Below, piece after piece: positions 5,871 to 64,000 of a stretch of DNA of 64,000 nt. Position numbers and translations under genes: made by a program. The stretch covers positions 95,604,001-95,668,000 of the forward strand of contig OZ024740.1 of NCBI GenBank assembly GCA_964016885.1. The letters run 5' to 3'. This DNA comes from Eledone cirrhosa. Taxonomy: Eukaryota. Within the stretch, counting starts at the first letter, position 1; the number at the start of each line of letters is the position of its first letter. Below the pieces are notes generated by a model. It searched no databases and was not told the origin of the DNA. It was given only the letters and a program-made list of their open reading frames with translations.

Positions 5871-6688
5871 AATCACTGTTCAATAAAAGCATTTAGGAAA
5901 ATGAAACAAATCCATCTGACATAAATTATTTATATTATATTTTGAAGGCAAATATTTGCCTCCAAAAACCAACACAATGGGTAAATATACATTTCGCTCG
6001 TAAAATTTGCTATATGTGAAGTAAGCTTTGGCGTGTAATAGTATGTTCATAAAATATAGTGTCTTCCGTAAAATATCAAATGTGGTGATATATAACTGGT
6101 TTGCAAATTGAGATATGAATAAATAATTTTTGAAACATAGACACTGTAATTTCTTTCTGTATATTTGGAACTTTCACTTTTCTTTTTTATTAGTTTTTGT
6201 TTGGTTTTGTGTAGTCAATATTTACTAAATATAAACAATTATTTAAAGTTTCATATTCTTATCCAGACAAGAAGAAAGATGAAGAGAAGTATTCGATAAT
6301 TTGTCAGTTAATAAGAGGGTGCCAATATTTATGTTTCCATACATCATTTCTTCTTTTGGAAAGTTGATTGAATTTAAAATGAATAACTAGATAAGACAAC
6401 ATAAATACACACATATTTAATATATAATTTATTTACAGTAGAGGTTTGCTTAGTCAATATATTGATTTCACGATTTACTTTGATGCATGTATTATTTATT
6501 TTGCCCACATTGATATTTTAATTTAATTCAACTTAGTGTAGCATGAAGCCTGTTATATATATTTCCAAGGTATGGTCATTTATTTATCTGAATCTATTAG
6601 ATGAAATAGATGAGAAAATTAGTAGAACCAATTTTGTTAATTATCATTTCTTCATGTGTTACACATGCAATGAATAACATAAAGCTGA

Positions 6689-11679: not shown

Positions 11680-12149
<470 letters not shown>

Positions 12150-12856: not shown

Positions 12857-12861
12857 ATATA
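12736..12861. repeat. (TA)n microsatellite
   Basis: Direct reading. Confidence 0.95.
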
Positions 12862-14495: not shown

Positions 14496-14499
14496 CTCG

Positions 14500-15977: not shown

Positions 15978-16009
15978 CCATAGTGACCATTCACAGCCTA
16001 CGGCCTGCT

Positions 16010-16390
16010 ATCTTCACACACACGCACGTATATGCATACCCATACGCACACACACACACATCTATATTTATACACGCACACATGTTTTTACAACCTACCA
16101 CCTTTCACACCCTTTGATTTCCAGCTTCTACAGCCCACTATCTTTCACACACACACGCACTCACACATATACACACATAGTTACACACACATGTATACCC
16201 ATACGCTTACACACACATATCTATATTTATACACGCACACATGTTTTACAACCTACCACCTTTCACACCCTTTGATTTCTAGCTTCTACAGCCCACTATC
16301 TTTCACACACACACACACTCACACTTATACACACTTACACTTATACACACACAGTTACACACACATATATATTTACACACACATATTTTA
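16010..16390 (+). repeat. Tandem duplication of about 158 bp with CA-rich microsatellites in the PLE 3' UTR
   Basis: ACCTACCACCTTTCACACCCTTTGATTT at about 16093 and 16251; mirrored at 13250-13620. Confidence 0.85.
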
Positions 16391-16811
16391 CGGCTTTCAC
16401 AAGCTAGCGCACCCTCTTGATTTAACCCATTTGGTCAGTAGCTTTTGCTACAGCCTATCACGCGCACGCGCATTCTTTCCCTCGCTTAAATTTTAAATAA
16501 TGTTCTCCCCATAACGGCATTCCTGTCTTAACGACATCACAACTTTCTCCGCTTGGCCTGTCCCCCCCCCCCTTTTGGAACTTTCCCCCGTTGATGGGCG
16601 TGAGCCCGAAATATTAGGATTAAATCTCCACTACGGTAACCCTTCTACCTTTGTTTTGTTTTCATCTTTGTCTCTCTCAATTTTCACTTTCTCCTGTTTC
16701 TCCTATCTATCATTCACTTCCTACCTCGAGATTTCCCTCTGCATTGTTGTGGATTTCTTAACTACGTATTTTACACATTTCACAATGCTTCAAGCAAACT
16801 TTAACACCCTC

Positions 16812-16844
<33 letters not shown>

Positions 16845-16876
16845 TATGTATATATATATATATATATATATTTATG

Positions 16877-16928
<52 letters not shown>

Positions 16929-16986
16929 CAACATGACCCTCCCAAAGTATAACAATATATTTATATATATATATTTATAAATATAT
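16812..16986. repeat. Imperfect (TA)n tract containing the second copy of the 32-bp motif (16925-16956)
   Basis: Direct reading. Confidence 0.95.
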
Positions 16987-17187
16987 AAACAATTAAGTTA
17001 AAGTGTACATCTACATATGTATACGGAAGTACTAGTATGCATATAAATACACACATGTATACATATGTACATGTACTGAGTTTTTCACTAGACACTTTAC
17101 AGTGAGTGTCCAGCTAGTCTGTATGTAACCAAACAGACGAACCGGGTTTTAGAGTAATACGAGTTTTCAAGGAAACACACTTCCTCG

Positions 17188-17282
17188 ATTCTCCAGAGAG
17201 CCAGACAGGAATATTGGACTAGTTTCGATGTTATTACATCTCATCAGCAATATAAACCCATCTTCCGGCTTCTCTAGAGAAT
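17188..17282 (-). ncRNA. Type I hammerhead ribozyme, first copy (core 17211-17253; predicted cleavage GUC/C between 17217 and 17216)
   Basis: Minus strand: helix I AUAUUG/CAAUAU, CUGAUGA, helix II GAUGU-AAUA-ACAUC, GAAA, helix III A-CUAG-U, C17. Helix I extends through AGAUGGG/CCUGUCU and AUUCUCUAGAGAAGCC/GGCUCUCUGGAGAAU. Confidence 0.93.
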
Positions 17283-17400
17283 TGTAAAAGCACATATCGT
17301 TATATGCTTTTTCTATGAAAATTAGTAGTGGGCAGACTAAGTTGCATAGAACGTGAGTCATTGTACGCACCGGTTCAGCGGAAACGACAAAAACAAATAA

Positions 17401-17425
17401 CGAAACGAAATTAAATTTCGTTTCG
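17401..17425. repeat. 25-bp palindrome in the monomer (first copy shown)
   Basis: CGAAACGAAATT-A-AATTTCGTTTCG. Confidence 0.95.
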
Positions 17426-18280
17426 CTTCTAACTCACTTTTGTATGACTGACGCTTAAACAATTAAGTTACAGTGTACATCTACATATGTATACGGAAGT
17501 ACTAGTATGCATATAAATACACACATGTATACATATGTACATGTACTGAGTTTTTCACTAGACACTTTACAGTGAGTGTTCAGCTAGTCTGTATGTAACC
17601 AAACAGACGAACCGGGTTTTAGAGTCATACGAGTTTTCAGGGAAACAGACTTCCTCTATTCTCCAGAGAGCCAGACAGGAATATTGGACTAGTTTCGATG
17701 TTATTACATCTCATCAGCAATATATACCCATCTTCCGGCTTCTCTAGAGAATTGTAAAAGCACATATCGTTATATGCTTTTTTCTATGAAAATTAGTAGT
17801 GGGCAGACTAGTTTGCTTAGAACTTGAGTCATTGTACGCACCGGTTCAGCGGAAACGATAAAAACAAATAACGAAACGAAATTAAATTTCATTTCGCTTC
17901 TAACTCACTTTTGTATGACTGACGCTTAAACAATTAAGTTAAAGTGTACATCTACATATGTATACGGAAGTACTAGTATGCATATAAATACACACATGTA
18001 TACATATGTACATGTACTGAGTTTTTCACTAGACACTTTACAGTGAGTGTCCAGCTAGTCTGTATGTAACCAAACAGAAGAACCGGGTTTTAGAGTCATA
18101 CGAGTTTTCAAGGAAACACACTTCCTCTATTCTCCAGAGAGCCAGACAGGAATATTGGACTAGTTTCGATGTTATTACATCTCATCAGCAATATAAACCC
18201 ATCTTCCGGCTTCTCTAGAGAATTGTAAAAGCAAATATCGTTATATGCTTTTTCTATGAAAATTAGTAGTGGGCAGACTA

Positions 18281-18301
18281 ATTTGCATAGAACGTGAGTC
18301 A
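18281..18301 (-). promoter_or_regulatory. Octamer (ATGCAAAT) and AP-1-like (TGACTCA) motifs present in most monomers (one copy shown)
   Basis: ATTTGCAT at 18281-18288 and TGAGTCA at 18295-18301, about 90 nt upstream of the hammerhead on the minus strand. Function is unverified. Confidence 0.4.
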
Positions 18302-21300
18302 TTGTACGCACCAGTTCAGCGGAAACGATAAAAACAAATAACGAAACGAAATTAAATTTCGTTTCGCTTCTAACTCACTTTTGTATGACTGACGCTTAAA
18401 CAATTAAGTTAAAGTGTACATCTACATATGTATACGGAAGTACTAGTATGCATATAAATACACACATGTATACAAATGTACATGTACTGAGTTTTTCACT
18501 AGACACTTTACAGTGAGTGTCCAGCTAGTCTGTATGTAACCAAACAGACGAACCGGGTTTTAGAGTCATACGAGTTTTCAAGGAAACAGACTTCCTCTAT
18601 TCTCCAGAGAGCCAGACAGGAATATTGGACTAGTTTCGATGTTATTACATCTCATCAGCAATATAAACCCATCTTCCGGCTTCTCTAGAGAATTGTAAAA
18701 GCACATATCGTTATATGCTTTTTCTATGAAAATTAGTAGTGGGCAGACTAATTTGCATAGAACGTGAGTCATTGTACGCACCGGTTCAGCGTAAACGATA
18801 AAAACAAATAACGAAACGAAATTAAATTTCGTTTCGCTTCTAACTCACTTTTGTATGACTGACGCTTAAACAATTAAGTTACAGTGTACATCTACATATG
18901 TATACGGAAGTACTAGTATGCATATAAATACACACATGTATACATATGTACATGTACTGAGTTTTTCACTAGACACTTTACAGTGAGTGTTCAGCTAGTC
19001 TGTATGTAACCAAACAGACGAACCGGGTTTTAGAGTCATACGAGTTTTCAAGGAAACACACTTCCTCGATTCTCCAGAGAGCCAGACAGGAATATTGGAC
19101 TAGTTTCGATGTTATTACATCTCATCAGCAATATATACCCATCTTCCGGCTTCTCTAGAGAATTGTAAAAGCAAATATCGTTATATGCTTTTTCTATGAA
19201 AATTAGTAGTGGGCAGACTAATTTGCATAGAACGTGAGTCATTGTACGCACCAGTTCAGCGGAAACGATAAAAACAAATAACGAAACGAAATTAAATTTC
19301 GTTTCGCTTCTAACTCACTTTTGTATGACTGACGCTTAAACAATTAAGTTAAAGTGTACATCTATATATGTATACGGAAGTACTAGTATAAATATAAATA
19401 CACACATGTATACATATGTACATGTACTGAGTTTTTCACTAGACACTTTACAGTGAGTGTCCAGCTAGTCTGTATGTAACCAAACAGACGAACCGGGTTT
19501 TAGAGTCATACGAGTTTTCAAGGAAACACACTTCCTCTATTTCCAGAGAGCCAGACAGGAATATTGGACTAGTTTCGATGTTATTACATCTCATCAGCAA
19601 TATTTAGCCATCTTCCGGCTTCTCTAGAGAATTGTAAAAGCACATATCGTTATATGCTTTTTCTATGAAAATTAGTAGAGGGCAGACTAATTTGCTTAGA
19701 ACGTGAGTCATTGTACGCACCGGTTCAGCGGAAACGATAAAAACAAATAACGAAACGAAATTAGATTTCGTTTCGCTTCTAACTCACTTTTGTATGACTG
19801 ACGCTTAAACAATTAAGTTAAAGTGTACATCTACATATGTATACGGAAGTACTAGTATGCATATAAATACACACATGTATACATATGTACATGTACTGAG
19901 TTTTTCACTAGACACTTTACAGTGAGTGTCCAGCTAATCTGTATGTAACCAAACAGACGAACCGGGTTTTAGAGTCATACGAGTTTTCAAGGAAACAGAC
20001 TTCCTCTATTCTCCAGAGAGCCAGACAGGAATATTGGACTAGTTTCGATGTTATTACATCTCATCCGCAATATATACCCATCTTCCGGCTTCTCTAGAGA
20101 ATTGTAAAAGCACATATCGTTATATGCTTTTTCTATGAAAATTAGTAGTGGGCAGACTAATTTGCATAGAACGTGAGTCATTGTACGCACCGGTTCAGCG
20201 GAAACAATAAAAGCAAATAACGAAACGAAATTAAATTTCGTTTCGCTTCTAACTCACTTTTGTATGACTGACGCTTAAACAATTAAGTTACAGTGTACAT
20301 CTACATATGTATACGGAAGTACTAGTATGCATATAAATACACACATGTATACATATGTACATGTACTGAGTTTTTCACTAGACACTTTACAGTGAGTGTT
20401 CAGCTAGTCTGTATGTAACCAAACAGACGAACCGGGTTTTAGAGTCATACGAGTTTTCAAGGAAACAGACTTCCTCTATTCTCCAGAGAGCCAGACAGGA
20501 ATATTGGACTAGTTTCGATGTTATTACATCTCATCAGCAATATATACCCATCTTCCGGCTTCTCTAGAGAATTGTAAAAGCACATATCGTTATATGCTTT
20601 TTTCTATGAAAATTAGTAGTGGGCAGACTAGTTTGCTTAGAACTTGAGTCATTGTACGCACCGGTTCAGCGGAAACGATAAAAACAAATAACGAAACGAA
20701 ATTAAATTTCGTTTCGCTTCTAACTCACTTTTGTATGACTGACGCTTAAACAATTAAGTTACAGTGTACATCTACATATGTATACGGAAGTACTAGTATG
20801 CATATAAATACACACATGTATACATATGTACATGTACTGAGTTTTTCACTAGACACTTTAGAGTGAGTGTTCAGCTAGTCTGTATGTAACCAAACAGACG
20901 AACCGGGTTTTAGAGTCATACGAGTTTTCAAGGAAACAGACTTCCTCTATTCTCCAGAGAGCCAGACAGGAATATTGGACTAGTTTCGATGTTATTACAT
21001 CTCATCAGCAATATATACCCATCTTCCGGCTTCTCTAGAGAATTGTAAAAGCACATATCGTTATATGCTTTTTTCTATGAAAATTAGTAGTGGGCAGACT
21101 AGTTTGCTTAGAACTTGAGTCATTGTACGCACCGGTTCAGCGGAAACGATAAAAACAAATAACGAAACGAAATTAAATTTCGTTTCGCTTCTAACTCACT
21201 TTAGTATGACTGACGCTTAAACAATTAAGTTACAGTGTACATCTACATATGTATACGGAACTACTAGTATGCATATAAATACACACATGTATACATATGT

Positions 21301-24300
21301 ACATGTACTGAGTTTTTCACTAGACACTTTACAGTGAGTGTCCAGCTAGTCTGTATGTAACCAAACAGAAGAACCGGGTTTTAGAGTCATACGAGTTTTC
21401 AAGGAAACACACTTCCTCTATTCTCCAGAGAGCCAGACAGGAATATTGGACTAGTTTCGATGTTATTACATCTCATCAGCAATATAAACCCATCTTCCGG
21501 CTTCTCTAGAGAATTGTAAAAGCAAATATCGTTATATGCTTTTTCTATGAAAATTAGTAGTGGGCAGACTAATTTGCATAGAACGTGAGTCATTGTACGC
21601 ACCAGTTCAGCGGAAACGATAAAAACAAATAACGAAACGAAATTAAATTTCGTTTCGCTTCTAACTCACTTTTGTATGACTGACGCTTAAACAATTAAGT
21701 TAAAGTGTACATCTACATATGTATACGGAAGTACTAGTATGCATATAAATACACACATGTATACAAATGTACATGTACTGAGTTTTTCACTAGACACTTT
21801 ACAGTGAGTGTCCAGCTAGTCTGTATGTAACCAAACAGACGAACCGGGTTTTAGAGTCATACGAGTTTTCAAGGAAACAGACTTCCTCTATTCTCCAGAG
21901 AGCCAGACAGGAATATTGGACTAGTTTCGATGTTATTACATCTCATCAGCAATATAAACCCATCTTCCGGCTTCTCTAGAGAATTGTAAAAGCACATATC
22001 GTTATATGCTTTTTCTATGAAAATTAGTAGTGGGCAGACTAATTTGCATAGAACGTGAGTCATTGTACGCACCGGTTCAGCGTAAACGATAAAAACAAAT
22101 AACGAAACGAAATTAAATTTCGTTTCGCTTCTAACTCACTTTTGTATGACTGACGCTTAAACAATTAAGTTACAGTGTACATCTACATATGTATACGGAA
22201 GTACTAGTATGCATATAAATACACACATGTATACATATGTACATGTACTGAGTTTTTCACTAGACACTTTACAGTGAGTGTTCAGCTAGTCTGTATGTAA
22301 CCAAACAGACGAACCGGGTTTTAGAGTCATACGAGTTTTCAAGGAAACACACTTCCTCGATTCTCCAGAGAGCCAGACAGGAATATTGGACTAGTTTCGA
22401 TGTTATTACATCTCATCAGCAATATATACCCATCTTCCGGCTTCTCTAGAGAATTGTAAAAGCAAATATCGTTATATGCTTTTTCTATGAAAATTAGTAG
22501 TGGGCAGACTAATTTGCATAGAACGTGAGTCATTGTACGCACCAGTTCAGCGGAAACGATAAAAACAAATAACGAAACGAAATTAAATTTCGTTTCGCTT
22601 CTAACTCACTTTTGTATGACTGACGCTTAAACAATTAAGTTAAAGTGTACATCTATATATGTATACGGAAGTACTAGTATAAATATAAATACACACATGT
22701 ATACATATGTACATGTACTGAGTTTTTCACTAGACACTTTACAGTGAGTGTCCAGCTAGTCTGTATGTAACCAAACAGACGAACCGGGTTTTAGAGTCAT
22801 ACGAGTTTTCAAGGAAACACACTTCCTCTATTTCCAGAGAGCCAGACAGGAATATTGGACTAGTTTCGATGTTATTACATCTCATCAGCAATATTTAGCC
22901 ATCTTCCGGCTTCTCTAGAGAATTGTAAAAGCACATATCGTTATATGCTTTTTCTATGAAAATTAGTAGAGGGCAGACTAATTTGCTTAGAACGTGAGTC
23001 ATTGTACGCACCGGTTCAGCGGAAACGATAAAAACAAATAACGAAACGAAATTAGATTTCGTTTCGCTTCTAACTCACTTTTGTATGACTGACGCTTAAA
23101 CAATTAAGTTAAAGTGTACATCTACATATGTATACGGAAGTACTAGTATGCATATAAATACACACATGTATACATATGTACATGTACTGAGTTTTTCACT
23201 AGACACTTTACAGTGAGTGTCCAGCTAATCTGTATGTAACCAAACAGACGAACCGGGTTTTAGAGTCATACGAGTTTTCAAGGAAACAGACTTCCTCTAT
23301 TCTCCAGAGAGCCAGACAGGAATATTGGACTAGTTTCGATGTTATTACATCTCATCCGCAATATATACCCATCTTCCGGCTTCTCTAGAGAATTGTAAAA
23401 GCACATATCGTTATATGCTTTTTCTATGAAAATTAGTAGTGGGCAGACTAATTTGCATAGAACGTGAGTCATTGTACGCACCGGTTCAGCGGAAACAATA
23501 AAAGCAAATAACGAAACGAAATTAAATTTCGTTTCGCTTCTAACTCACTTTTGTATGACTGACGCTTAAACAATTAAGTTACAGTGTACATCTACATATG
23601 TATACGGAAGTACTAGTATGCATATAAATACACACATGTATACATATGTACATGTACTGAGTTTTTCACTAGACACTTTACAGTGAGTGTTCAGCTAGTC
23701 TGTATGTAACCAAACAGACGAACCGGGTTTTAGAGTCATACGAGTTTTCAAGGAAACAGACTTCCTCTATTCTCCAGAGAGCCAGACAGGAATATTGGAC
23801 TAGTTTCGATGTTATTACATCTCATCAGCAATATATACCCATCTTCCGGCTTCTCTAGAGAATTGTAAAAGCACATATCGTTATATGCTTTTTTCTATGA
23901 AAATTAGTAGTGGGCAGACTAGTTTGCTTAGAACTTGAGTCATTGTACGCACCGGTTCAGCGGAAACGATAAAAACAAATAACGAAACGAAATTAAATTT
24001 CGTTTCGCTTCTAACTCACTTTTGTATGACTGACGCTTAAACAATTAAGTTACAGTGTACATCTACATATGTATACGGAAGTACTAGTATGCATATAAAT
24101 ACACACATGTATACATATGTACATGTACTGAGTTTTTCACTAGACACTTTAGAGTGAGTGTTCAGCTAGTCTGTATGTAACCAAACAGACGAACCGGGTT
24201 TTAGAGTCATACGAGTTTTCAAGGAAACAGACTTCCTCTATTCTCCAGAGAGCCAGACAGGAATATTGGACTAGTTTCGATGTTATTACATCTCATCAGC

Positions 24301-27300
24301 AATATATACCCATCTTCCGGCTTCTCTAGAGAATTGTAAAAGCACATATCGTTATATGCTTTTTTCTATGAAAATTAGTAGTGGGCAGACTAGTTTGCTT
24401 AGAACTTGAGTCATTGTACGCACCGGTTCAGCGGAAACGATAAAAACAAATAACGAAACGAAATTAAATTTCGTTTCGCTTCTAACTCACTTTAGTATGA
24501 CTGACGCTTAAACAATTAAGTTACAGTGTACATCTACATATGTATACGGAACTACTAGTATGCATATAAATACACACATGTATACATATGTACATGTACT
24601 GAGTTTTTCACTAGACACTTTACAGTGAGTGTTCAGCTAGTCTGTATGTAACCAAACAGACGAACAGGGTTTTAGAGTCATACGAGTTTTCAAGGAAACA
24701 GACTTCCTCTATTCTCCAGAGAGCCAGACAGGAATATTGGACTAGTTTCGATGTTATTACATCTCATCAGCAATATATACCCATCTTCCGGCTTCTCTAG
24801 AGAATTGTAAAAGCACATATCGTTATATGCTTTTTTCTATGAAAATTAGTAGTGGGCAGACTAGTTTGCTTAGAACTTGAGTCATTGTACGCACCGGTTC
24901 AGCGGAAACGATAAAAACAAATAACGAAACGAAATTAAATTTCGTTTCGCTTCTAACTCACTTTTGTATGACTGACGCTTAAACAATTAAGTTACAGTGT
25001 ACATCTACATATGTATACGGAAGTACTAGTATGCATATAAATACACACATGTATACATATGTACATGTACTAAGTTTTTCACTAGACACTTTACAGTGAG
25101 TGTTCAGCTAGTCTGTATGTAACCAAACAGACGAACCGGGTTTTAGAGTCATGCGAGTTTTCAAGGAAACAGACTTCCTCTATTCTCCAGAGAGCCAGAC
25201 AGGAATATTGGACTAGTTTCGATGTTATTACATCTCATCAGCAATATATACCCATCTTCCGGCTTCTCTAGAGAATTGTAAAAGCACATATCGTTATATG
25301 CTTTTTTCTATGAAAATTAGTAGTGGGCAGACTAGTTTGCTTAGAACTTGAGTCATTGTACGCACCGGTTCAGCGGAAACGATAAAAACAAATAACGAAA
25401 CGAAATTAAATTTCGTTTCGCTTCTAACTCACTTTTGTATGACTGACGCTTAAACAATTAAGTTAAAGTGTACATCTACATATGTATACGGAAGTACTAG
25501 TATGCATATAAATACACACATGTATACATATGTACATGTACTGAGTTTTTCACTAGACACTTTACAGTGAGTGTCCAGCTAGTCTGTATGTAACCAAACA
25601 GACGAACCGGGTTTTAGAGTCATACGAGTTTTCAAGGAAACAGACTTCCTCTATTCTTCAGAGAGCCAGACAGGAATATTGGACTAGTTTCGATGTTATT
25701 ACATCTCATCAGCAATATAAACCCATCTTCCGGCTTCTCTAGAGAATTGTAAAAGCAAATATCGTTATATGCTTTTTCTATGAAAATTAGTAGTGGGCAG
25801 ACTAATTTGCATAGAACGTGAGTCATTGTACTCACCAGTTCAGCGGAAACGATAAAAACAAATAACGAAACGAAATTAAATTTCGTTTCGCTTCTAACTC
25901 ACTTTTGTATGACTGACGCTTAAACAATTAAGTTAAAGTGTACATCTATATATGTATACGGAAGTACTAGTATGCATATAAATACACACATGTAGACATA
26001 TGTACATGTACTGAGTTTTTCACTAGACACTTTACAGTGAGTGTCCAGCTAGTCTGTATGTAACCAAACAGACGAACCGGGTTTTAGAGTCATACGAGTT
26101 TTCAAGGAAACAGACTTCCTCTATTCTCCAGAGAGCCAGACAGGAATATTGGACTAGTTTCGATGTTATTACATCTCATCAGCAATATAAACCCATCTTC
26201 CGGCTTCTCTAGAGAATTGTAAAAGCACATATCGTTATATGCTTTTTCTATGAAAATTAGTAGTGGGCAGACTAATTTGCATAGAACGTGAGTCATTGTA
26301 CGCACCGGTTCAGCGGAAACGATAAAAACAAATAACGAAACGAAATTAAATTTCGTTTCGCTTCTAACTCACTTTTGTATGACTGACGCTTAAACAATTA
26401 AGTTAAAGTGTACATCTACATATGTATACGGAAGTACTAGTATGCATATAAATACACACATGTATACATATGTACATGTACTGAGTTTTTCACTAGACAC
26501 TTTACAGTGAGTGTCCAGCTAGTCTGTATGTAACCAAACAGACGAACCGGGTTTTAGAGTCATACGAGTTTTCAAGGAAACAGACTTCCTCTATTCTCCA
26601 GAGAGCCAGACAGGAATATTGGACTAGTTTCGATGTTATTACATCTCATCAGCAATATAAACCCATCTTCCGGCTTCTCTAGAGAATTGTAAAAGCAAAT
26701 ATCGTTATATGCTTTTTCTATGAAAATTAGTAGTGGGCAGACTAATTTGCATAGAACGTGAGTCATTGTACGCACCAGTTCAGCGGAAACGATAAAAACA
26801 AATAACGAAACGAAATTAAATTTCGTTTCGCTTCTAACTCACTTTTGTATGACTGACGCTTAAACAATTAAGTTAAAGTGTACATCTATATATGTATACG
26901 GAAGTACTAGTATAAATATAAACACACACATGTATACATATGTACATGTACTGAGTTTTTCACTAGACACTTTACAGTGAGTGTCCAGCTAGTCTGTATG
27001 TAACCAAACAGACGAACCGGGTTTTAGAGTCATACGAGTTTTCAAGGAAACAGACTTCCTCTATGCTCCAGAGAGCCAGACAGGAATATTGGACTAGTTT
27101 CGATGATATTACATCTCATCAGCAATATTTAGCCATCTTCCGGCTTCTCTAGAGAATTGTAAAAGCACATATCGTTATATGCTTTTTCTATGAAAATTAG
27201 TAGAGGGCAGACTAATTTGCTTAGAACGTGAGTCATTGTACGCACCGGTTCAGCGGAAACGATAAAAACAAATAACGAAACGAAATTAGATTTCGTTTCG

Positions 27301-51300: not shown

Positions 51301-54300
51301 ACAATTAAGTTAAAGTGTACATCTACATATGTATACGGAAGTACTAGTATGCATATAAATACACACATGTATACATATGTACATGTACTGTGTTTTTCAC
51401 TAGACACTTTACAGTGAGTGTCCAGCTAGTCTGTATGTAACCAAACAGACGAACCGGGTTTTAGAGTCATACGAGTTTTCAAGGAAACACACTTCCTCTA
51501 TTCTCCAGAGAGCCAGACAGGTATATTGGACTAGTTTCGATGTTATTACATCTCATCAGCAATATAACCCATCTTCCGGCTTCTCTAGAGAATTGTAAAA
51601 GCACATATCGTTATATGCTTTTTCTATGAAAATTAGTAGTGGGCAGACTAATTTGCATAGAACGTGAGTCATTGTACGCACCGGTTCAGCGGAAACGATA
51701 AAAACAAATAACGAAACGAAATTAAATTTCGTTTCTTTTCTAACTCACTTTTGTATGACTGACGCTTAAACAATTAAGTTAAAGTGTACCTCTACATATG
51801 TATACGGAAGTACTAGTAGGCATATAAATACACACATGTATACATATGTACATGTACTGAGTTTTTCACTAGACACTTTACAGTGAGTGTCCAGCTAGTC
51901 TGTATGTAACCAAACAGACGAACCGGGTTTTAGAGTCATACGAGTTTTCAGGGAAACACACTTCCTCTATTCTCCAGAGAGCCAGACAGGAATATTGGAC
52001 TAGTTTCGATGTTGTTACATCTCATCAGCAATATAAACCCATCTTCCGGCTTCTCTAGAGAATTGTAAAAGCACGTATCGTTATATGCTTTTTCTATGAA
52101 AATTAGTAGTGGGCAGACTAATTTGCATAGAACGTGAGTCATTGTACGCACCGGTTCAGCGGAAACGATAAAAACAAATAACGAAACGAAATTAAATTTC
52201 GTTTCGCTTCTCACTCACTTTTCTATGACTGACGCTTAAACAATTAAGTTAAAGTGTACATCTACATATGTATACGGAAGTACTAGTATGCATATAAATA
52301 CACACATGTATACATATGTACATGTACTGAGTTTTTCGCTAGACACTTTACAGTGAGTGTCCAGCTAGTCTGTATGTAACCAAACAGACGAACCGGGTTT
52401 TAGAGTCATACGAGTTTTCAAGGAAACACACTTCCCCTATTCTCCAGAGAGCCAGACAGGTATATTGGACTAGTTTCGATGTTATTACATCTCATCAGCA
52501 ATATAACCCATCTTCCGGCTTCTCTACAGAATTGTAAAAGCACATATCGTTATATGCTTTTTCTATGAAAATTAGTAGTGGGCAGGCTAATTTGCATAGA
52601 ACGTGAGTCATTGTACGCACCGGTTCAGCGGAAACGATAAAAACAAATAACGAAACGAAATTAAATTTCGTTTCTTTTCTAACTCACTTTTGTATGACTG
52701 ACGCTTAAACAATTAAGTTAAAGTGTACCTCTACATATGTATACGGAAGTACTAGTAGGCATATAAATACACACATGTATACATATGTACATGTACTGAG
52801 TTTTTCACTAGACACTTTACAGTGAGTGTCCAGCTAGTCTGTATGTAACCAAACAGACGAACCGGGTTTTAGAGTCATACGAGTTTTCAGGGAAACACAC
52901 TTCCTCTATTCTCCAGAGAGCCAGACAGGAATATTGGACTAGTTTCGATGTTATTACATCTCATCAGCAATATAAACCCATCTTCCGGCTTCTCTAGAGA
53001 ATTGTAAAAGCACGTATCGTTATATGCTTTTTCTATGAAAATTAGTAGTGGGCAGACTAATTTGCATAGAACGTGAGTCATTGTACGCACCGGTTCAGCG
53101 GAAACGATAAAAACAAATAACGAAACAAAATTAAATTTCGTTTCGCTTCTAACTCACTTTTCTATGACTGACGCTTAAACAATTAAGTTAAAGTGTACAT
53201 CTACATATGTATACGGAAGTACTAGTATGCATATAAATACACACATGTATACATATGTACATGTACTGAGTTTTTCGCTAGACACTTTACAGTGAGTGTC
53301 CAGCTAGTCTGTATGTAACCAAACAGACGAACCGGGTTTTAGAGTCATACGAGTTTTCAAGGAAACATACTTCCTCTATTCTGCAGAGAGCCAGACAGGA
53401 AGATTGGACTTGTTTCGATGTTATTACATCTCATCAGCAATATATACCCAACTTCCGGCTTCTCTAGAGAATTGTAAAAGCACATATCGTTATATGCTTT
53501 TTCTATGAAAATTAGTAGTGGGCAGAATAATTTGCATAGAACGTGAGTCATTGTACGCACCGGTTCAGCGGAAACGATAAAAACAAATAACGAAACGAAA
53601 TTAAATTTCGTTTCGCTTCTAACTCACTTTTGTATGACTGACGTTTAAACAATTAAGTTAAAGTGTACATCTACATATGTATACGGAAGTACTAGTATGC
53701 ATATAAATACACACATGTATACATATGTACATGTACAGAGTTTTTCGCTAGACACTTTACAGTGAGTGTCCAGCTAGTCTGTATGTAACCAAACAGACGA
53801 ACCGGGTTTTAGAGTCATACGAGTTTTCAAGGAAACATACTTCCTCTATTCTCCAGAGAGCCAGACAGGAATATTGGACTAGTTTCGATGTTATTACATC
53901 TCATCAGCAATAATAACCCATCTTCCGGCTTCTCTAGAGAATTGTAAAAGCACATATCGTTATATGCTTTTTCTATGAAAATTAGTAGTGGGCAGACTAA
54001 TTTGCATAGAACGTGAGTCATTGTACGCACCGGTTCAGCGGAAACGATAAAAACAAATAACGAAACGAAATTAAATTTCGGTTCGCTACTAACTCACTTT
54101 TCTATGACTGACGCTTAAACAATTAAGTTAAAGTGTACATCTACATATGTATACGGAAGTACTAGTATGCATATAAATACACACATGTATACATATGTAC
54201 ATGTACTGAGTTTTTCACTAGACACTTTACAGTGAGTGTCCAGCTAGTCTGTATGTAACCAAACAGACGAACCGGGTTTTACAGTCATACGAGTTTTCAA

Positions 54301-57300
54301 GGAAACACACTTCCTCTATTCTCCAGAGAGCCAGACAGGAATATTGGACTAGTTTCGATGTTATTACATCTCATCAGCAATAATAACCCATCTTCCGGCT
54401 TCTCTAGAGAATTGTAAAAGCACATATCGTTATATGCTTTTTCTATGAAAATTAGTAGTGGGCAGACTAATTTGCATACAATGTGAGTCATTGTACGCAC
54501 CGGTTCAGCGGAAACTATAAAAACAAATAACGAAACGAAATTAAATTTCGTTTCGCTTCTAACTCACTTTTCTATGACTGACGCTTAAACAATTAAGTTA
54601 AAGTGTACATCTACATATGTATACGGAAGTACTAGTATGCATATAAATACACACATGTATACATATGTACATGTACTGAGTTTTTCGCTAGACACTTTAC
54701 AGTGAGTGTCCAGCTAGTCAGTATGTAACCAAACAGACGAACCGGGTTTTAGAGTCATACGAGTTTTCAAGGAAACATACTTCCTCTCTTCTCCAGAGAG
54801 CCAGACAGGAATATTGGACTTGTTTCGATGTTATTACATCTCATCAGCAATATATACCCATCTTCCGGCTTCTCTAGAGAATTGTAAAAGCTCATATCGT
54901 TATATGCTTTTTCTATGAAAATTAGTAGTGGGCAGACTAATTTGCATAGAACGTGAGTCATTGTACGCACCGGTTCAGCGGAAACGATAAAAACAAATAA
55001 CGAAACGAAATTAAATTTCGGTTCGCTACTAACTCACTTTTCTATGACTGACGCTTAAACAATTAAGTTAAAGTGTACATCTACATATGTATACGGAAGT
55101 AGTAGTATGCATATAAATACACACATGTATACATATGTACATGTTCTGAGTTTTTCACTAGACACTTTACAGTGAGTGTCCAGCTAGTCTGTATGTAACC
55201 AAACAGACGAACCGGGTTTTAGAGTCATACGAGTTATCAAGGAAACACACTTCCTCTATTCTCCAGAGAGCCAGACAGGAATATTGGACTAGTTTCGATG
55301 TTATTACATCTCATCAGCAATAATAACCCATCTTCCGGCTTCTCTAGAGAATTGTAAAAGCACATATCGTTATATGCTTTTTCTATGAAAATTAGTAGTG
55401 GGCAGACTAATTTGCATAGAACGTGAGTCATTGTACGCACCGGTTCAGCGGAAACGATAAAAACAAATAACGAAACGAAATTAAATTTCGGTTCGCTACT
55501 AACTCACTTTTCTATGACTGACGCTTAAACAATTAAGTTAAAGTGTACATCTACATATGTATACGGAAGTACTAGTATGCATATAAATACACACATGTAT
55601 ACATATGTACATGTACTGAGTTTTTCACTAGACACTTTACAGTGAGTGTCCAGCTAGTCTGTATGTAACCAAACAGACGAACCGGGTTTTAGAGTCATAC
55701 GAGTTTTCAAGGAAACAGACTTCCTCTATTCTCCAGAGAGCCAGACAGGAATATTGGACTAGTTTCGATGTTATTACATCTCATCAGCAATAATAACCCA
55801 TCTTCAGGCTTCTCTAGAGAATTGTAAAAGCACTTATCGTTATATGCTTTTTCTATGAAAATTAGTAGTGTGCAGACTAATTTGCATAGAACGTGAGTCA
55901 TTGTGCGCACTGGTTCAGCGGAAACGATAAAAACAAATAACGAAACGAAACTAAATTTCGTTTCGCTTCTAACTCACTTTTGTATGACTGACGCTTAAAC
56001 AATTAAGTTAAAGTGTACATCTACATATGTATACGGAAGTACTAGTATGCATATAAATACACACATGTATACATATGTACATGTACTGAGTTTTTCACTA
56101 GACACTTTACAGTGAGTGTCCAGCTAGTCTGTATGTAACCAAACAGACGAACCAGGTTTTAGAGTCATACAAGTTTTCAAGGAAACACACTTCCTCTATT
56201 CTCCAGAGAGCCAGGCAGGTATATTGGACTAGTTTCGATGTTATTACATCTCATCAACAATATAACCCATCTTCCGGCTTCTCTAGCGAATTGTAAAAGC
56301 ACATATCGTTATATGCTTTTTCTATGAAAATTAGTAGTGGGCAGACTAATTTGCATAGGACGTGAGTCATTGTACGCACCGGTTCAGCGGAAACGATAAA
56401 AACAAATAACGAAACGAAATTAAATTTCGTTTCGTTTCTAACTCACTTTTGTATGACTGACGCTAAAACAATTAAGTTAAAGTGTACATCTACATATGTA
56501 TACGGAAGTACTAGTATGCATATAAATACACACATGTATACATATGTACATGTACTGTGTTTTTCACTAGACACTTTACAGTGAGTGTCCAGCTAGTCTG
56601 TATGTAACCAAACAGACGAACCGGGTTTTAGAGTCATACGAGTTTTCAAGGAAACACACTTCCTCTATTCTCCAGAGAGCCAGACAGGAATATTGGACTA
56701 GTTTCGATGTTATTACATCTCATCAGCAATATAAACCCATCTTCCGGCTTCTCTAGAGAATTGTAAAAGCACATATCATTATATGCTTTTTCTATGAAAA
56801 TTAGTAGTGGGCAGACTAATTTTCATAGAACGTGAGTCATTGTACGCACCGGTTCAGCGGAAACGATAAAAACAAATAACGAAACGAAATTAAATTTCGT
56901 TTCGTTTCTTACTCACTTTTGTATGACTGACGCTTAAACAATTAAGTTAAAGTGTACATCTACATATGTATACGGAAGTATTAGTATGCATATAAATACA
57001 CACATGTATACATATGTACATGTACTGTGTTTTTCACTAGACACTTTACAGTGAGTGTCCAGCTAGTCTGTATGTAACCAAACAGACGAACCGGGTTTTA
57101 GAGTCATACGAGTTTTCAAGGAAACACACTTCCTCTATTCTCCAGAGAGCCAGACAGGTATATTGGACTAGTTTCGATGTTATTGCATCTCATCAGCAAT
57201 ATAACCCATCTTCCGGCTTCTCTAGAGAATTGTAAAAGCACATATCGTTATATGCTTTTTCTATGAAAATTAGTAGTGGGCAGACTAATTTGCATAGAAC

Positions 57301-60300
57301 GTGAGTCATTGTACGCACCGGTTCAGCGGAAACGATAAAAACAAATAACGAAACGAAATTAAATTTCATTTCGCTTCTAACTCACTTTTGTATGACTGAC
57401 GCTTAAACAATTAAGTTAAAGTGTACATCTACATATGTATACGGAAGTACTAGTATGCATATAAATACACCAATGTATACATATGTACATGTACTGTGTT
57501 TTTCACTAGACACTTTACAGTGAGTGTCCAGCTAGTCTGTATGTAACCAAACAGACGAACCGGGTTTTAGAGTCATACGAGTTTTCAAGGAAACACACTT
57601 CCTCTATTCTCCAGAGAGCCAGACAGGAATATTGGACTAGTTTCGATGTTATTACATCTCATCAGCAATATAAACCCATCTTCCGGCTTCTCTAGAGAAT
57701 TGTAAATGCACATATCGTTATATGCTTTTTCTATGAAAATTAGTAGTGGGCAGACTAATTTGCATAGAACGTGAGTCATTGTACGCACCGGTTCAGCGGA
57801 AACGATAAAAACAAATAACGAAACGAAATTAAATTTCGTTTCGCTTCTAACTCACTTTTGTATGACTGACGCTTAAACAATTAATTTAAAGTGTACATCT
57901 ACATATGTATACGGAAGTACTAGTATGCATATAAATACACACATGTATACATATGTACATGTACTGTGTTTTTCACTAGACACTTTACAGTGAGTGTCCA
58001 GCTAGTCTGTATGTAACCAAACAGACGAACCGGGTTTTAGAGTCATACGAGTTTTCAAGGAAACACACTTCCTCTATTCTCCAGAGAGCCAGACAGGTAT
58101 ATTGGACTAGTTTCGATGTTATTACATCTCATCAGCAATATAACCCATCTTCCGGCTTCTCTAGAGAATCGTAAAAGCACATATCGTTATATGCTTTTTC
58201 TATGAAAATTAGTAGTGGGCAGACTAATTTGCATAGAACGTGAGTCATTGTACGCACCGGTTCAGCGGAAACGATAAAAACAAATAACGAAACGAAATTA
58301 AATTTCGTTTCTTTTCTAACTCACTTTTGTATGACTGACGCTTAAACAATTAAGTTAAAGTGTACCTCTACATATGTATACGGAAGTACTAGTAGGCATA
58401 TAAATACACACATGTATACATATGTACATGTACTGATTTTTCCACTAGACACTTTACAGTGAGTGTCCAGATAGTCTGTATGTAACCAAACAGACGAACC
58501 GGGTTTTAGAGTCATACGAGTTTTCAAGGAAAAACACTTCCTCTATTCTCCAGAGAGACAGAGAGGAATATTGGACTAGTTTCGATGTTATTACATCTCA
58601 TCAGCAATATAACCCATCTTCCGGCTTCTCTAGAGAATTGTAAAAGCACATATCGTTATATGCTTTTTCTATGAAAATTAGTAGTGGGCAGACTAATTTG
58701 CATAGAACGTGAGTCATTGTACGCACCGGTTCAGCGGAAACGATAAAAACAAATAACGAAACGAAATTAAATTTCGTTTCGCTTCTAACTCACTTTTGTA
58801 TGACTGACGCTTAAAAAATTAAGTTAAAGTGTACATCTACATATGTATACGGAAGTACTAGTATGCATATAAATACACACATGTATACATATGTACATGT
58901 ACTGAGTTTTTCACTAGACACTTTACAGTGAGTGTCCCGCTAGTCTGTATGTAACCAAACAGACGAAGCGGGTTTTAGATTCTTACGAGTTTTCAAGGAA
59001 ACACACTTCCTCTATTCTCCATAGAGCCAGACAGGAATATTGGACTAGTTTCGATGTCATTACATCTCATCAGCAATATAAACCCATCTTCCGGCTTCTC
59101 TAGAGAATTGTAAAAGCACATATCGTTATATGCTTTTTCTATGAAAATTAGTAGTGGGCAGACTAATTTGCATAGAACGTGAGTCATTGTACGCACCGGT
59201 TCAGCGGAAACGATAAAAACAAATAACGAAACGAAATTAAATTTCGTTTCGCTTCTAACTCACTTTTGTATGACTGATGCTTAAACAATTAAGTTAAAGT
59301 GTACATCTACATATGTATACGGAAGTACTAGTATGCATATAAATACACACATGTATACATATGTACATGTACTGAGTTTTTCACTAGACACTTTACAGTA
59401 AGTGTCCATCTAGACTGTATGTAACCAAACAGACGAACCGGGTTTTAGAGTCATACGAGTTTTCAAGGAAACAGACTTCCTCTATTCTCCAGAGAGCCAG
59501 ACAGGAATATTGGACTAGTTTCGATGTTATTACATCTCATCAGCAATAATAACCCATCTTCCGGCTTCTCTAGAGAATTGTAAAAGCACATATCGTTATA
59601 TGCTTTTTCTATGAAAATTAGTAGTGGGCAGACTAATTTGCATAGAACGTGAGTCATTGTACGCACCGGTTCAGCGGAAACGATAAAAACAAATAACGAA
59701 ACGAAATTAAATTTCGTTTCGCTTCTAACTCACTTTTGTATGACTGATGCTTAAACAATTAAGTTAAAGTGTACATCTACATATGTATACGGAAGTACTA
59801 GTATGCATATAAATACACACATGTATACATATGTACATGTACTGAGTTTTTCACTAGACTCTTTACAGTGAGTGTCCAGCTAGTCTGTATGTAACCAAGC
59901 AGACGAACCGGGTTTTAGAGTCATACGAGTTTTCAATGAAAAACACTTCCTCTATTCTCCAGAGAGCCAGACATGAATATTGGACTAGTTTCGATGTTAT
60001 TACATTTAATCAGCAATATAAACCCATCTTCCGGCTTCTCTAGAGAATTGTAAAAGCACATATCGTTATATGCTTTTCCTATGAAAATTAGTAGTGGGCA
60101 GACTAATTTGCATAGAACGTGAGTCATTGTACGCACCGGTTCAGCGGAAACGATAAAAACAAATAACGAAACGAAATTAAATTTCTTTTCGCTTCTAACT
60201 CACTTTTGTATGACTGACGCTTAAACAATTAAGTTAATGTGTACATCTACATATGTATACGGAAGTACTAGTATGCATATAAATACACACATGTATACAT

Positions 60301-63300
60301 ATGTACATGTACTGTGTTTTTCACTAGACACTTTACAGTGAGTGTCCAGCTAGTCTGTATGTAACCAAACAGACGAACCGGGTTTTAGAGTCATACGAGT
60401 TTTCAAGGAAACACACTTCCTCTATTCTCCAGAGAGCCAGACAGGTATATTGGACTAGTTTCGATGTTATTACATCTCATCAGCAATATAACCCATCTTC
60501 CGGCTTCTCTAGAGAATCGTAAAAGCACATATCGTTATATGCTTTTTCTATGAAAATTAGTAGTGGGCAGACTAATTTGCATAGAACGTGAGTCATTGTA
60601 CGCACCGGTTCAGCGGAAACGATAAAAACAAATAACGAAACGAAATTAAATTTCGTTTCTTTTCTAACTCACTTTTGTATGACTGACGCTTAAACAATTA
60701 AGTTAAAGTGTACCTCTACATATGTATACGGAAGTACTAGTAGGCATATAAATACACACATGTATACATATGTACATGTACTGATTTTTCCACTAGACAC
60801 TTTACAGTGAGTGTCCAGATAGTCTGTATGTAACCAAACAGACGAACCGGGTTTTAGAGTCATACGAGTTTTCAAGGAAAAACACTTCCTCTATTCTCCA
60901 GAGAGACAGAGAGGAATATTGGACTAGTTTCGATGTTATTACATCTCATCAGCAATATAACCCATCTTCCGGCTTCTCTAGAGAATTGTAAAAGCACATA
61001 TCGTTATATGCTTTTTCTATGAAAATTAGTAGTGGGCAGACTAATTTGCATAGAACGTGAGTCATTGTACGCACCGGTTCAGCGGAAACGATAAAAACAA
61101 ATAACGAAACGAAATTAAATTTCGTTTCGCTTCTAACTCACTTTTGTATGACTGACGCTTAAAAAATTAAGTTAAAGTGTACATCTACATATGTATACGG
61201 AAGTACTAGTATGCATATAAATACACACATGTATACATATGTACATGTACTGAGTTTTTCACTAGACACTTTACAGTGAGTGTCCCGCTAGTCTGTATGT
61301 AACCAAACAGACGAAGCGGGTTTTAGATTCTTACGAGTTTTCAAGGAAACACACTTCCTCTATTCTCCATAGAGCCAGACAGGAATATTGGACTAGTTTC
61401 GATGTCATTACATCTCATCAGCAATATAAACCCATCTTCCGGCTTCTCTAGAGAATTGTAAAAGCACATATCGTTATATGCTTTTTCTATGAAAATTAGT
61501 AGTGGGCAGACTAATTTGCATAGAACGTGAGTCATTGTACGCACCGGTTCAGCGGAAACGATAAAAACAAATAACGAAACGAAATTAAATTTCGTTTCGC
61601 TTCTAACTCACTTTTGTATGACTGATGCTTAAACAATTAAGTTAAAGTGTACATCTACATATGTATACGGAAGTACTAGTATGCATATAAATACACACAT
61701 GTATACATATGTACATGTACTGAGTTTTTCACTAGACACTTTACAGTAAGTGTCCATCTAGACTGTATGTAACCAAACAGACGAACCGGGTTTTAGAGTC
61801 ATACGAGTTTTCAAGGAAACAGACTTCCTCTATTCTCCAGAGAGCCAGACAGGAATATTGGACTAGTTTCGATGTTATTACATCTCATCAGCAATAATAA
61901 CCCATCTTCCGGCTTCTCTAGAGAATTGTAAAAGCACATATCGTTATATGCTTTTCCTATGAAAATTAGTAGTGGGCAGACTAATTTGCATAGAACGTGA
62001 GTCATTGTACGCACCGGTTCAGCGGAAACGATAAAAACAAATAACGAAACGAAATTAAATTTCTTTTCGCTTCTAACTCACTTTTGTATGACTGACGCTT
62101 AAACAATTAAGTTAATGTGTACATCTACATATGTATACGGAAGTACTAGTATGCATATAAATACACACATGTATACATATGTACATGTACTGAGTTTTTC
62201 ACTAGACACTTTACAGTGAGTGTCCAGCTAGTCTGTATGTAACCAAACAGACGAACCGGGTTTTAGAGTCATACGAGTTTTCAAGGAAACAGACTTCCTC
62301 TATTCTCCAGAGAGCCAGACAGGAATATTGGACTAGTTTCGATGTTATTACATCTCATCATCAATAATAACCCATCTTCAGGCTTCTCTAGAGAATTGTA
62401 AAAGCACTTATCGTTATATGCTTTTTCTATGAAAATTAGTAGTGGGCAGACTAATTTGCATAGAACGTGAGTCATTGTGCGCACTGGTTCAGCGGAAACG
62501 ATAAAAACAAATAACGAAACGAAACTAAATTTCGTTTCGCTTCTAACTCACTTTTGTATGACTGACGCTTAAACAATTAAGTTAAAGTGTACATCTACAT
62601 ATGTATACGGAAGTACTAGTATGCATATAAATACACACATGTATACATATGTACATGTACTGAGTTTTTCACTAGACACTTTACAGTGAGTGTCCAGCTA
62701 GTCTGTATGTAACCAAACAGACGAACCGGGTTTTAGAGTCATACAAGTTTTCAAGGAAACACACTTCCTCTATTCTCCAGAGAGCCAGACAGGTATATTG
62801 GACTAGTTTCGATGTTATTACATCTCATCAGCAATATAACCCATCTTCCGGCTTCTCTAGCGAATTGTAAAAGCACATATCGTTATATGCTTTTTCTATG
62901 AAAATTAGTAGTGGGCAGACTAATTTGCATAGGACGTGAGTCATTGTACGCACCGGTTCAGCGGAAACGATAAAAACAAATAACGAAACGAAATTAAATT
63001 TCGTTTCGCTTCTAACTCACTTTTGTATGACTGACGCTTAAACAATTAAGTTAAAGTGTACATCTACATATGTATACGGAAGTACTAGTATGCATATAAA
63101 TACACACATGTATACATATGTACATGTACTGTGTTTTTCACTAGACACTTTACAGTGAGTGTCCAGCTAGTCTGTATGTAACCAAACAGACGAACCGGGT
63201 TTTAGAGTCATACGAGTTTTCAAGGAAACACACTTCCTCTATTCTCCAGAGAGCCAGACAGGTATATTGGACAAGTTTCGATGTTATTACATCTCATCAG

Positions 63301-63732
63301 CAATATAACCCATCTTCCGGCTTCTCTAGAGAATTGTAAAAGCACATATCGTTATATGCTTTTTCTATGAAAATTAGTAGTGGGCAGACTAATTTGCATA
63401 GAACGTGAGTCATTGTACGCACCGGTTCAGCGGAAACGATAAAAACAAATAACGAAACGAAATTAAATTTCGTTTCTTTTCTAACTCACTTTTGTATGAC
63501 TGACGCTTAAACAATTAAGTTAAAGTGTACCTCTACATATGTATACGGAAGTACTAGTAGGCATATAAATACACACATGTATACATATGTACATGTACTG
63601 AGTTTTTCACTAGACACTTTACAGTGAGTGTCCAGCTAGTCTGTATGTAACCAAACAGACGAACCGGGTTTTAGAGTCATACGAGTTTTCAAGGAAAAAC
63701 ACTTCCTCTATTCTCCAGAGAGCCAGACAGGA

Positions 63733-63775
63733 ATATTGGACTAGTTTCGATGTTATTACATCTCATCAGCAATAT
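63733..63775 (-). ncRNA. Type I hammerhead ribozyme core, last copy in the window
   Basis: ATATTGGACTAGTTTCGATGTTATTACATCTCATCAGCAATAT, identical to the first copy. Confidence 0.93.
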
Positions 63776-64000
63776 AACCCATCTTCCGGCTTCTCTAGAG
63801 AATTGTAAAAGCACATATCGTTATATGCTTTTTCTATGAAAATTAGTAGTGGGCAGACTAATTTGCATAGAACGTGAGTCATTGTACGCACCGGTTCAGC
63901 GGAAACGATAAAAACAAATAACGAAACGAAATTAAATTTCGTTTCGCTTCTAACTCACTTTTGTATGACTGATGCTTAAACAATTAAGTTAAAGTGTACA

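What the first reader, a model, noticed from the sequence alone, without database searches (positions are those of the whole stretch)
16987..64000. A satellite of at least 47 kb made of about 100 tandem hammerhead ribozymes: candidate retrozyme / circular RNA system
Seen: each ~470-bp monomer reads AUAUUG CUGAUGA GAUGU AAUA ACAUC GAAA CUAG UC CAAUAU on the minus strand, a complete type I hammerhead with both conserved boxes, Watson-Crick helices I and II and a GUC site. Established: tandem monomers with one type I hammerhead each define metazoan non-LTR retrozymes, newt satellite 2 and Schistosoma Sm-alpha; such multimeric transcripts self-process to monomers, which in retrozymes accumulate as circular RNAs. 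Inference: read-through transcription here would give ~470-nt monomers or circles. The monomer is at the long end for such elements and the uninterrupted copy number is striking. I do not recognise this family, but I cannot confirm that it is undescribed.
Basis: partly seen in the sequence, partly recalled or inferred. Interest (0 to 1): 0.95.

Follow-up and report, generated by a model that had tools for sequence, protein, structure and literature searches.

The report
Giant array of Penelope-mobilised retrozymes
The repeat is a real 66-kb array of a self-cutting-RNA mobile element (a retrozyme, a known kind), and its ends and those of its many scattered relatives look like the work of a Penelope-type retrotransposon copying a small RNA, probably a circle, many times over, which makes that long-proposed mechanism testable.

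Summary
Observation confirmed: 100 tandem 470-bp units, each with a minus-strand type I hammerhead; the 11 core bases are intact in 90 of 100. The array runs past the window to 66.2 kb and ends in a 2-unit inverted arm. It is one insertion of a genome-wide non-LTR retrozyme family: 9,484 exact cores, plus a distant third family. Copies sit in (TA)n, are 5'-truncated or inverted, and end at two fixed RNA sites about 70 nt apart, away from the ribozyme cut. All 41 insertions with two recognised ends have one of each: the Penelope 'tail' signature. Units within an insertion share a haplotype; one 9.3-kb insertion has 18 of 18 identical units over both arms, as rolling-circle reverse transcription predicts. 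The window array later grew by DNA duplication, decays neutrally and is not the source of the scattered copies examined. Unit length and copy number lie within published ranges. Cleavage, circles and the helper family are not shown. Verdict: new family of a known kind, with unusually clear mechanistic footprints.

The parts
16987..64000 (-). Long arm of the retrozyme array, 100 units in the window. It continues 18.2 kb beyond the window (138 full units plus 376 nt in all), followed by a 978-bp inverted arm that ends at unit position 401 in (AT)n at G000:C1:95687167.
16987..17456 (-). First 470-bp unit (positions 1-470 used in this report); 36% GC, non-coding; the RNA strand folds strongly
17211..17253 (-). 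Type I hammerhead: helix I 17253-17248 with 17216-17211; CUGAUGA 17247-17241; helix II 17240-17227; GAAA 17226-17223; palindrome ACUAGU 17223-17218; predicted cut 17217/17216
17188..17283 (-). Long extension of helix I around the hammerhead, with G-U pairs and compensatory changes in family 2. It holds the GGUA bulge whose A is lost in most array units.
16988..16991 (-). 'Short' fixed RNA-3' end (unit positions about 1-5), inferred first reverse-transcription start site; the array's left end
17387..17456 (-). 70-nt 'tail' (positions 470 to 401) with a 13-pair hairpin and U-rich end. Position 401 is the second fixed end, used by the array's far inverted arm.
17313..17350 (-). Hairpin downstream of both start sites, with its stem kept in all three families; candidate binding site for the helper protein (inference)
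16812..16986 (.). (TA)n microsatellite target shared with the neighbouring Penelope-like element
12857..16811 (.). Neighbouring Penelope-like element (RT plus C-terminal GIY-YIG), 5'-truncated, broken frame, head-to-head inverted, in (TA)n, with a short and a tailed end about 50 nt apart. Its family is a candidate helper; no sequence shared with the unit.

Best explanation
A non-LTR retrozyme carried by Penelope-like (PLE) machinery. (1) Multimeric minus-strand RNA is cut by the hammerheads, probably as dimers through the ACUAGU palindrome, and monomers are ligated to ~470-nt circles (inferred from the family's known biology; not shown). (2) A PLE protein nicks both strands of a (TA)n tract and starts reverse transcription at two internal sites of the RNA, positions ~1-5 and 401 (fixed ends shown; enzyme inferred). 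(3) Each cDNA can run round the template several times, and the two cDNAs join head to head, giving an inverted insertion with one short and one tailed end (anatomy shown; circular template inferred). (4) The window array is one such older insertion whose long arm was then enlarged by unequal exchange or segmental duplication to 139 units (shown by higher-order repeats) and now decays neutrally (shown). Selection on RNA structure acts on the mobile lineages, not on this array.
For: Ends: of 77 insertions, 41 short+tail, 18 tail only, 15 short only, 3 neither, 0 with two ends of one kind; the window array aligns short/tail; family 3 uses the homologous two sites. PMC11167929 shows two adjacent internal RT start sites, the tail, AT-rich cutting and extension of both strands for a PLE. 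The neighbour PLE family has the same anatomy, with 11 of 150 scored hits in 887-aa open frames. No pile-up of 5' ends at the cut: 2 of 137 arms within 3 nt, 2.0 expected; 97 of 137 arms exceed one unit. One haplotype per insertion: 1.0% difference within against 2.4% between loci; 132 of 143 marker sites concordant; 8 of 36 loci with private variants fixed in all covering units, 7 across both arms. 18 of 18 identical full units over both arms at L211-L212; that young haplotype has 70 units in 7 loci, longest arm 17. Structure: 54 substitutions between families 1 and 2 break 7 pairs against 22.6 in the null, with 4 double compensations against 1.0. Array: identical units at lags such as 5, 6, 7, 9, 12 and 28; 0.47 alleles per paired site against 0.45 unpaired, 0.73 in the core.
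Against: No RNA evidence was obtained. The young loci carry no locus-private fixed variants, so they cannot tell a circle from a homogeneous linear multimer. L037 holds two haplotypes (7 discordant markers) and one unit at C744 differs at 14 sites: these need template switching, conversion or a mixed multimer. PMC11167929 found hammerhead cleavage dispensable and unprocessed RNA the main substrate in vitro. 8 of 9 Xenopus retrozyme dimers did not cleave. No similarity to the neighbour PLE or to 30 loci of other PLE families, so the helper is unidentified. Most loci were picked as best full-length hits or for intact cores, which inflates arm lengths. The plus strand also beats the structure null, more weakly, and 48 of 140 testable pairs are broken in family 3.
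Confidence: 0.65

Rival explanations
1. Same PLE mobilisation, but the template is an uncleaved linear multimer read from a homogeneous array; the hammerhead is accessory and array growth is all DNA-level.
For: Cleavage is not needed for PLE insertion in vitro (PMC11167929). Mixed haplotypes at L037 and C744. Young loci share one haplotype, so the 17-unit arm could template the shorter ones. Nested shared variants in the 31- and 15-unit arrays show DNA-level reshuffling after insertion.
Against: The 17-unit arm itself has no equally long source in this assembly. Private variants are fixed in both arms of 7 loci. The 15-unit family 2 array is nearly star-like. The core and the whole fold are kept across families 59-89% alike, which a passenger ribozyme does not explain.
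Confidence: 0.22
2. The giant array is itself the main, possibly host-functional, source of ribozyme-processed RNA circles.
For: 118 of 138 units keep the core. In pDo500 the hammerhead is more conserved than the rest of the repeat (PMC2837043 abstract).
Against: Here the hammerhead is not protected: 0.58 alleles per site against 0.47 overall. The A of the GGUA bulge is kept in 27 of 134 classifiable array rows against 62 of 69 dispersed segments (counted). Of 10 subfamily markers 9 are absent from the array and one occurs in one unit; of 58 frequent array variants only two are common in dispersed copies.
Confidence: 0.1
3. DNA-level mobile tandem repeat (Helitron- or MITE-like, or recombination only) with a fossil ribozyme, or an assembly artefact.
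For: Higher-order repeats with identical units exist in the array; exact repeats can be mis-assembled.
Against: Polar anatomy with fixed 3' ends and variable 5' ends; strand-biased fold; 96 distinct unit sequences among 138; both array ends match the family's ends.
Confidence: 0.03

Closest known systems
Metazoan non-LTR retrozymes (Cervera and de la Pena 2020, PMC7229834; review PMC7761336)
   Same: Tandem non-coding units below 50% GC, one type I hammerhead each, weak helix III with palindromic loop, strongly self-paired monomer, thousands of copies, co-existing PLEs.
   Different: Unit of 465-496 nt against about 170-400 nt there. Here fixed paired ends and inversions point directly to PLE priming; those papers name PLEs only as likely helpers. 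Circles and cleavage were shown there, not here.
Non-LTR retrozymes as PLE derivatives (Li, Clavereau and Pollet 2026, 10.64898/2026.07.22.740005)
   Same: Monomers, dimers and multimers; 51-972 bp units; arrays up to 180 and 300 units; PLE co-occurrence.
   Different: Their evidence is co-occurrence and pLTR homology (24 of 57 Xenopus families matched known TEs, nearly all PLEs). No pLTR homology was found here; the evidence is insertion anatomy and haplotypes. They ascribe arrays to local amplification, whereas the young family here appears to arrive as long multimers.
Penelope-like elements and their non-autonomous derivatives such as MRC1 (PMC8557442; PMC11167929)
   Same: 5' truncation, inverted 5' copy, tail at one end only, microsatellite target, two internal RT start sites, multicopy head-to-tail insertions.
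   Different: Tail about 70 nt against 30-40; no ORF; no 3' similarity to the PLE families compared; canonical rather than minimal hammerhead.
pDo500 satellite of Dolichopoda cave crickets (PMC2837043, abstract seen)
   Same: Satellite with one hammerhead per repeat; repeat length about 500 bp (recalled, and implied by its name).
   Different: No sequence comparison made. In this array the hammerhead is not more conserved than the rest; conservation is seen only between mobile families.

Membership tests
Metazoan non-LTR retrozyme | Type I hammerhead in each tandem unit | tested here: met
   Core intact in 118 of 138 units; RF02275 match below gathering score
Metazoan non-LTR retrozyme | Short non-coding unit, GC below 50%, no LTR architecture | tested here: met
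   GC 0.36; one 88-aa stop-to-stop frame only in the first units scanned; insertions are unit multimers. PBS and PPT not searched.
Metazoan non-LTR retrozyme | Many dispersed and multimeric copies | tested here: met
   9,484 exact cores, control 0; 0.7-31 units in 18 loci taken by position
Metazoan non-LTR retrozyme | Highly self-paired monomer RNA | tested here: met
   z -8.3 minus, -6.2 plus; substitutions avoid breaking pairs; predicted only
Metazoan non-LTR retrozyme | Self-cleavage of the transcript | not testable with these tools
   Needs in vitro assay
Metazoan non-LTR retrozyme | Monomer circles in vivo | not testable with these tools
   No RNA data could be examined
Metazoan non-LTR retrozyme | Target-site duplication | tested here: inconclusive
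   Ends lie in (TA)n
PLE-mobilised non-autonomous element | Two RT start sites, tail at one end only | tested here: met
   41 of 41 insertions with two recognised ends are short+tail; homologous sites in family 3
PLE-mobilised non-autonomous element | 5' truncation and inverted 5' copy, AT-rich or microsatellite target | tested here: met
PLE-mobilised non-autonomous element | 3'-end or pLTR similarity to an autonomous family | tested here: not met
   None with the neighbour family or 30 loci found with P0029; Naiad and other PLE families were not compared, so this covers only part of the genome's PLEs
Described Dfam/Repbase family | Sequence match to a named repeat | not testable with these tools
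   No such library available

The most novel reading that the evidence does not exclude
Satellite arrays here are born in one step: a PLE reverse transcriptase primes from both nicked strands of (TA)n at two sites on a viroid-sized RNA circle and rolls round it up to about 17 times per arm, inserting 4-12 kb multimers that later seed arrays such as this 66-kb one. At least three families with no detected pLTR homology compete as structured RNA circles. This would be direct genomic evidence for the rolling-circle, PLE-driven retrozyme cycle and for a retro-rolling-circle route to satellite DNA.
Probability: 0.5. Interest if true: 0.72.

Novelty: new member of a known kind. Interest (0 to 1): 0.5.

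Why it matters
The class is known, so the array alone is not surprising. But which retrotransposon moves animal retrozymes, and whether it copies a circle, is stated as open in PMC7761336 and in the 2026 preprint. This family supplies exact predicted start sites, a target, very young identical multimers and a PLE family with naturally open frames, so the question can be tested with the assay of PMC11167929. It also shows a graded series from monomer to 15-, 20-, 31- and 141-unit arrays, a record of satellite birth and decay.

Tried and rejected
Rfam at gathering score: no hit; miRNA-family matches to the AT-rich hairpin are far below gathering score and were ignored. Linear monomer as template: rejected, no 5' ends at the cut (values near +230 to +240 there are unresolved tiny arms). 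Array as master source: rejected for the loci examined. Helper search: neighbour PLE, no shared sequence beyond simple repeats; PLE families found with P0029, none except retrozyme copies inserted at L213; a pattern for short-helix-II cores found 15 matches that read as deletion variants of the retrozyme core; a hammerhead-bearing (TA)n element flanking L211-L212 has two ends about 9 nt apart but its autonomous form was not found. PLE clade not assigned: the tree had no named references and is the quick tree. The bacterial promoter scan is irrelevant except for marking the tail hairpin. ViennaRNA cannot model the 2-nt helix III loop; the dimer rests on a -6.2 kcal/mol palindrome duplex and PMC4209133. 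Earlier-finding look-ups by place and sequence were empty. Rows dropped before counts: L003 and L009 (same loci as L002, L008), L035 (same flank as L007), L177 (cut by N).
Full report
Observation. The array is real: 16986-64000, period 470, 100.1 copies, 97% matches. The quoted 43-nt hammerhead is exact in 59 of 100 units, and the 11 core bases are intact in 90 of 100 window units and 118 of 138 full units overall. Rfam gives nothing at gathering score but RF02275 matches at 30-33 bits, E down to 1.9e-5. Helix III is at most two pairs around the palindrome ACUAGU. PMC4209133 (passages) describes this as the usual metazoan form that works as a dimer; the palindrome duplex is -6.2 kcal/mol. The minus strand of one unit folds at -153.1 kcal/mol, z -8.3, the plus strand at -127.8, z -6.2.

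The whole array. The window lies at G000:C1:95604001-95668000 in a 3.0-Gb genome. The long arm continues to 138 full units plus 376 nt, then flips into a 978-bp inverted arm ending at unit position 401 in (AT)n; total 66,181 bp. The left end is at position 1-2, also in (TA)n.

The family. The core pattern has 9,484 exact matches, the reversed control 0; it covers families 1 and 2 but not 3. Family 2 is 86-89% alike. Family 3 (about 496 nt, GUA cut triplet) is 59% alike in the global alignment and also young and tandem. In 77 insertions (41 best family 1 hits, 16 best family 2 hits, 18 taken by position on C1, 2 arrays) RNA-3' ends fall at two sites, positions about 1-5 and 401, against (TA)n: 41 have one of each, 18 the tail end only, 15 the short end only, 3 neither, and none has two of a kind. 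The window array scored 'short + other' in that script because its tail is mutated, but it aligns to 401. Family 3 uses the homologous sites. 5' ends are scattered: 2 of 137 arms in 82 loci lie within 3 nt of the cut, 2.0 expected, and 97 exceed one unit (the sample favours long arms).

What this anatomy means. PMC8557442 (passages; supplement rows) describes 5' truncation, an inverted 5' copy, a 30-40-bp tail at one end and microsatellite bias as PLE features. PMC11167929 (parts 1-2 of 4) shows in vitro that the tail lies between two internal RT start sites and that both strands of AT-rich DNA are cut and extended. The PLE next door (12857-16811; RT and GIY-YIG) has the same inverted build. 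Its family is abundant (13,102 candidates; 11 of 150 scored in 887-aa open frames), young (8-44 differences in 2,661 nt among 8 copies), and has two ends about 50 nt apart in (TA)n. It shares no sequence with the unit, nor do 30 loci of other PLE families. PLE mobilisation is therefore well supported, but the helper is not identified.

Circle or linear template. Family 1 copies fall into subfamilies, and units of one insertion share a haplotype: 1.0% difference within, 2.4% between. In 36 loci 132 of 143 doubly covered marker sites agree, and 8 loci have private variants fixed in all covering units, 7 across both arms ('private' means among these 36). At L211-L212 a 9.26-kb insertion has 18 of 18 identical full units over both arms. 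That haplotype has 70 units in 7 loci (19, 1, 7, 8, 25, 2, 8; longest arm 17), nearly all identical in the parts fetched. This is what rolling-circle copying predicts, as proposed in PMC7229834 (parts 2-4 of 6) and PMC7761336 (passages). Against: the young loci have no private fixed variants, so a homogeneous linear multimer is not excluded; L037 mixes two haplotypes and one C744 unit differs at 14 sites; and hammerhead cleavage was dispensable for the lizard PLE.

Where selection acts. Of 54 substitutions between families 1 and 2, 7 break predicted pairs against 22.6 in a placement null (0 of 5,000), and 4 are double compensations against 1.0, one in helix II; the plus strand gives a weaker signal. 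In family 3, 92 of 140 testable pairs hold against 30-56% for slid partners, with 48 broken. Inside the window array there is no such constraint: 0.47 alleles per paired site, 0.45 unpaired, 0.73 in the core. Identical units recur at lags such as 5, 6, 7, 9, 12 and 28, so it grew by DNA duplication; units are 7.1 differences from consensus, in 39-47 clusters at 6 and 4 differences. It lacks the subfamily markers, and its frequent variants are absent or single in dispersed copies. The A of the GGUA bulge, an upper-case position of RF02275, is kept in 27 of 134 classifiable array rows against 62 of 69 dispersed segments (counted). A founder mutation, slippage or selection for weaker ribozymes could explain this; it is unresolved.

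Comparison and novelty. It works like, and on every sequence feature testable here belongs with, metazoan non-LTR retrozymes; cleavage and circles are untested. The 2026 preprint (parts 1-3 of 5; supplements closed) reports units of 51-972 bp and arrays of 180 and 300 units, so neither size is a record, and it found cleavage in only 1 of 9 dimers. pDo500 (abstract) is a hammerhead satellite precedent. Eight paper searches listed no description of this family, and in the texts and passages read I saw no use of paired tail ends or within-insertion haplotypes as evidence for retrozyme mobilisation; subscription papers, Dfam, Repbase and two supplements were not visible. From memory the (TA)n-rich DNA and a frequent SINE-like flank resemble an octopod; this is recalled and untested.

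Verdict. Real; new member of a known kind; interest 0.5, carried by the mechanistic footprints rather than by the array's size.

Noticed in passing
window 12857-16811; L123-L130: Young, abundant Penelope-like family with 887-aa open frames, cysteine linker and a degenerate hammerhead-like core (UUGAUGG...GAAA) in its pseudo-LTR; clade not assigned
   Followed up: partly
L211:695-921 and L212:295-525: Another (TA)n-inserting element with a type I hammerhead-like core and two 3' ends about 9 nt apart (2,008 candidates); copies flank the young retrozyme insertion tail to tail; autonomous form not found
   Followed up: partly
L213:4055-4740; L243-L272: Third retrozyme family, about 496 nt, with an internal (TA)-rich hairpin of variable length, GUA cut triplet, tandem arrays and the same two ends
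   Followed up: partly
L168 (G000:C5:73319772-73326351): Family 2 insertion of about 3 plus 11 inverted units whose A-tract length differs from unit to unit, possibly slippage on each round of copying
   Followed up: no
window 17254-17256 and equivalents: Three alleles that remove the conserved A of the GGUA bulge dominate the array
   Followed up: partly
window 16926-16955 and near 11940: A short GC-richer motif of about 30 nt embedded in (TA)n tracts, also seen beside PLE copies L123 and L127; perhaps the end of yet another (TA)n-targeting element
   Followed up: no
window 4416-5872, minus strand: Broken frames resembling the C-terminal nuclease region of a CRE-like non-LTR retrotransposon (recalled; no Pfam hit)
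   Followed up: no
L213-L242: Several further PLE families (56,642 candidates with P0029), two with their own hammerhead-like cores
   Followed up: partly
G000:C1:211898500 and C1:212377915 (L007, L035): Same insertion and flank twice, about 480 kb apart: segmental duplication or assembly duplicate
   Followed up: no
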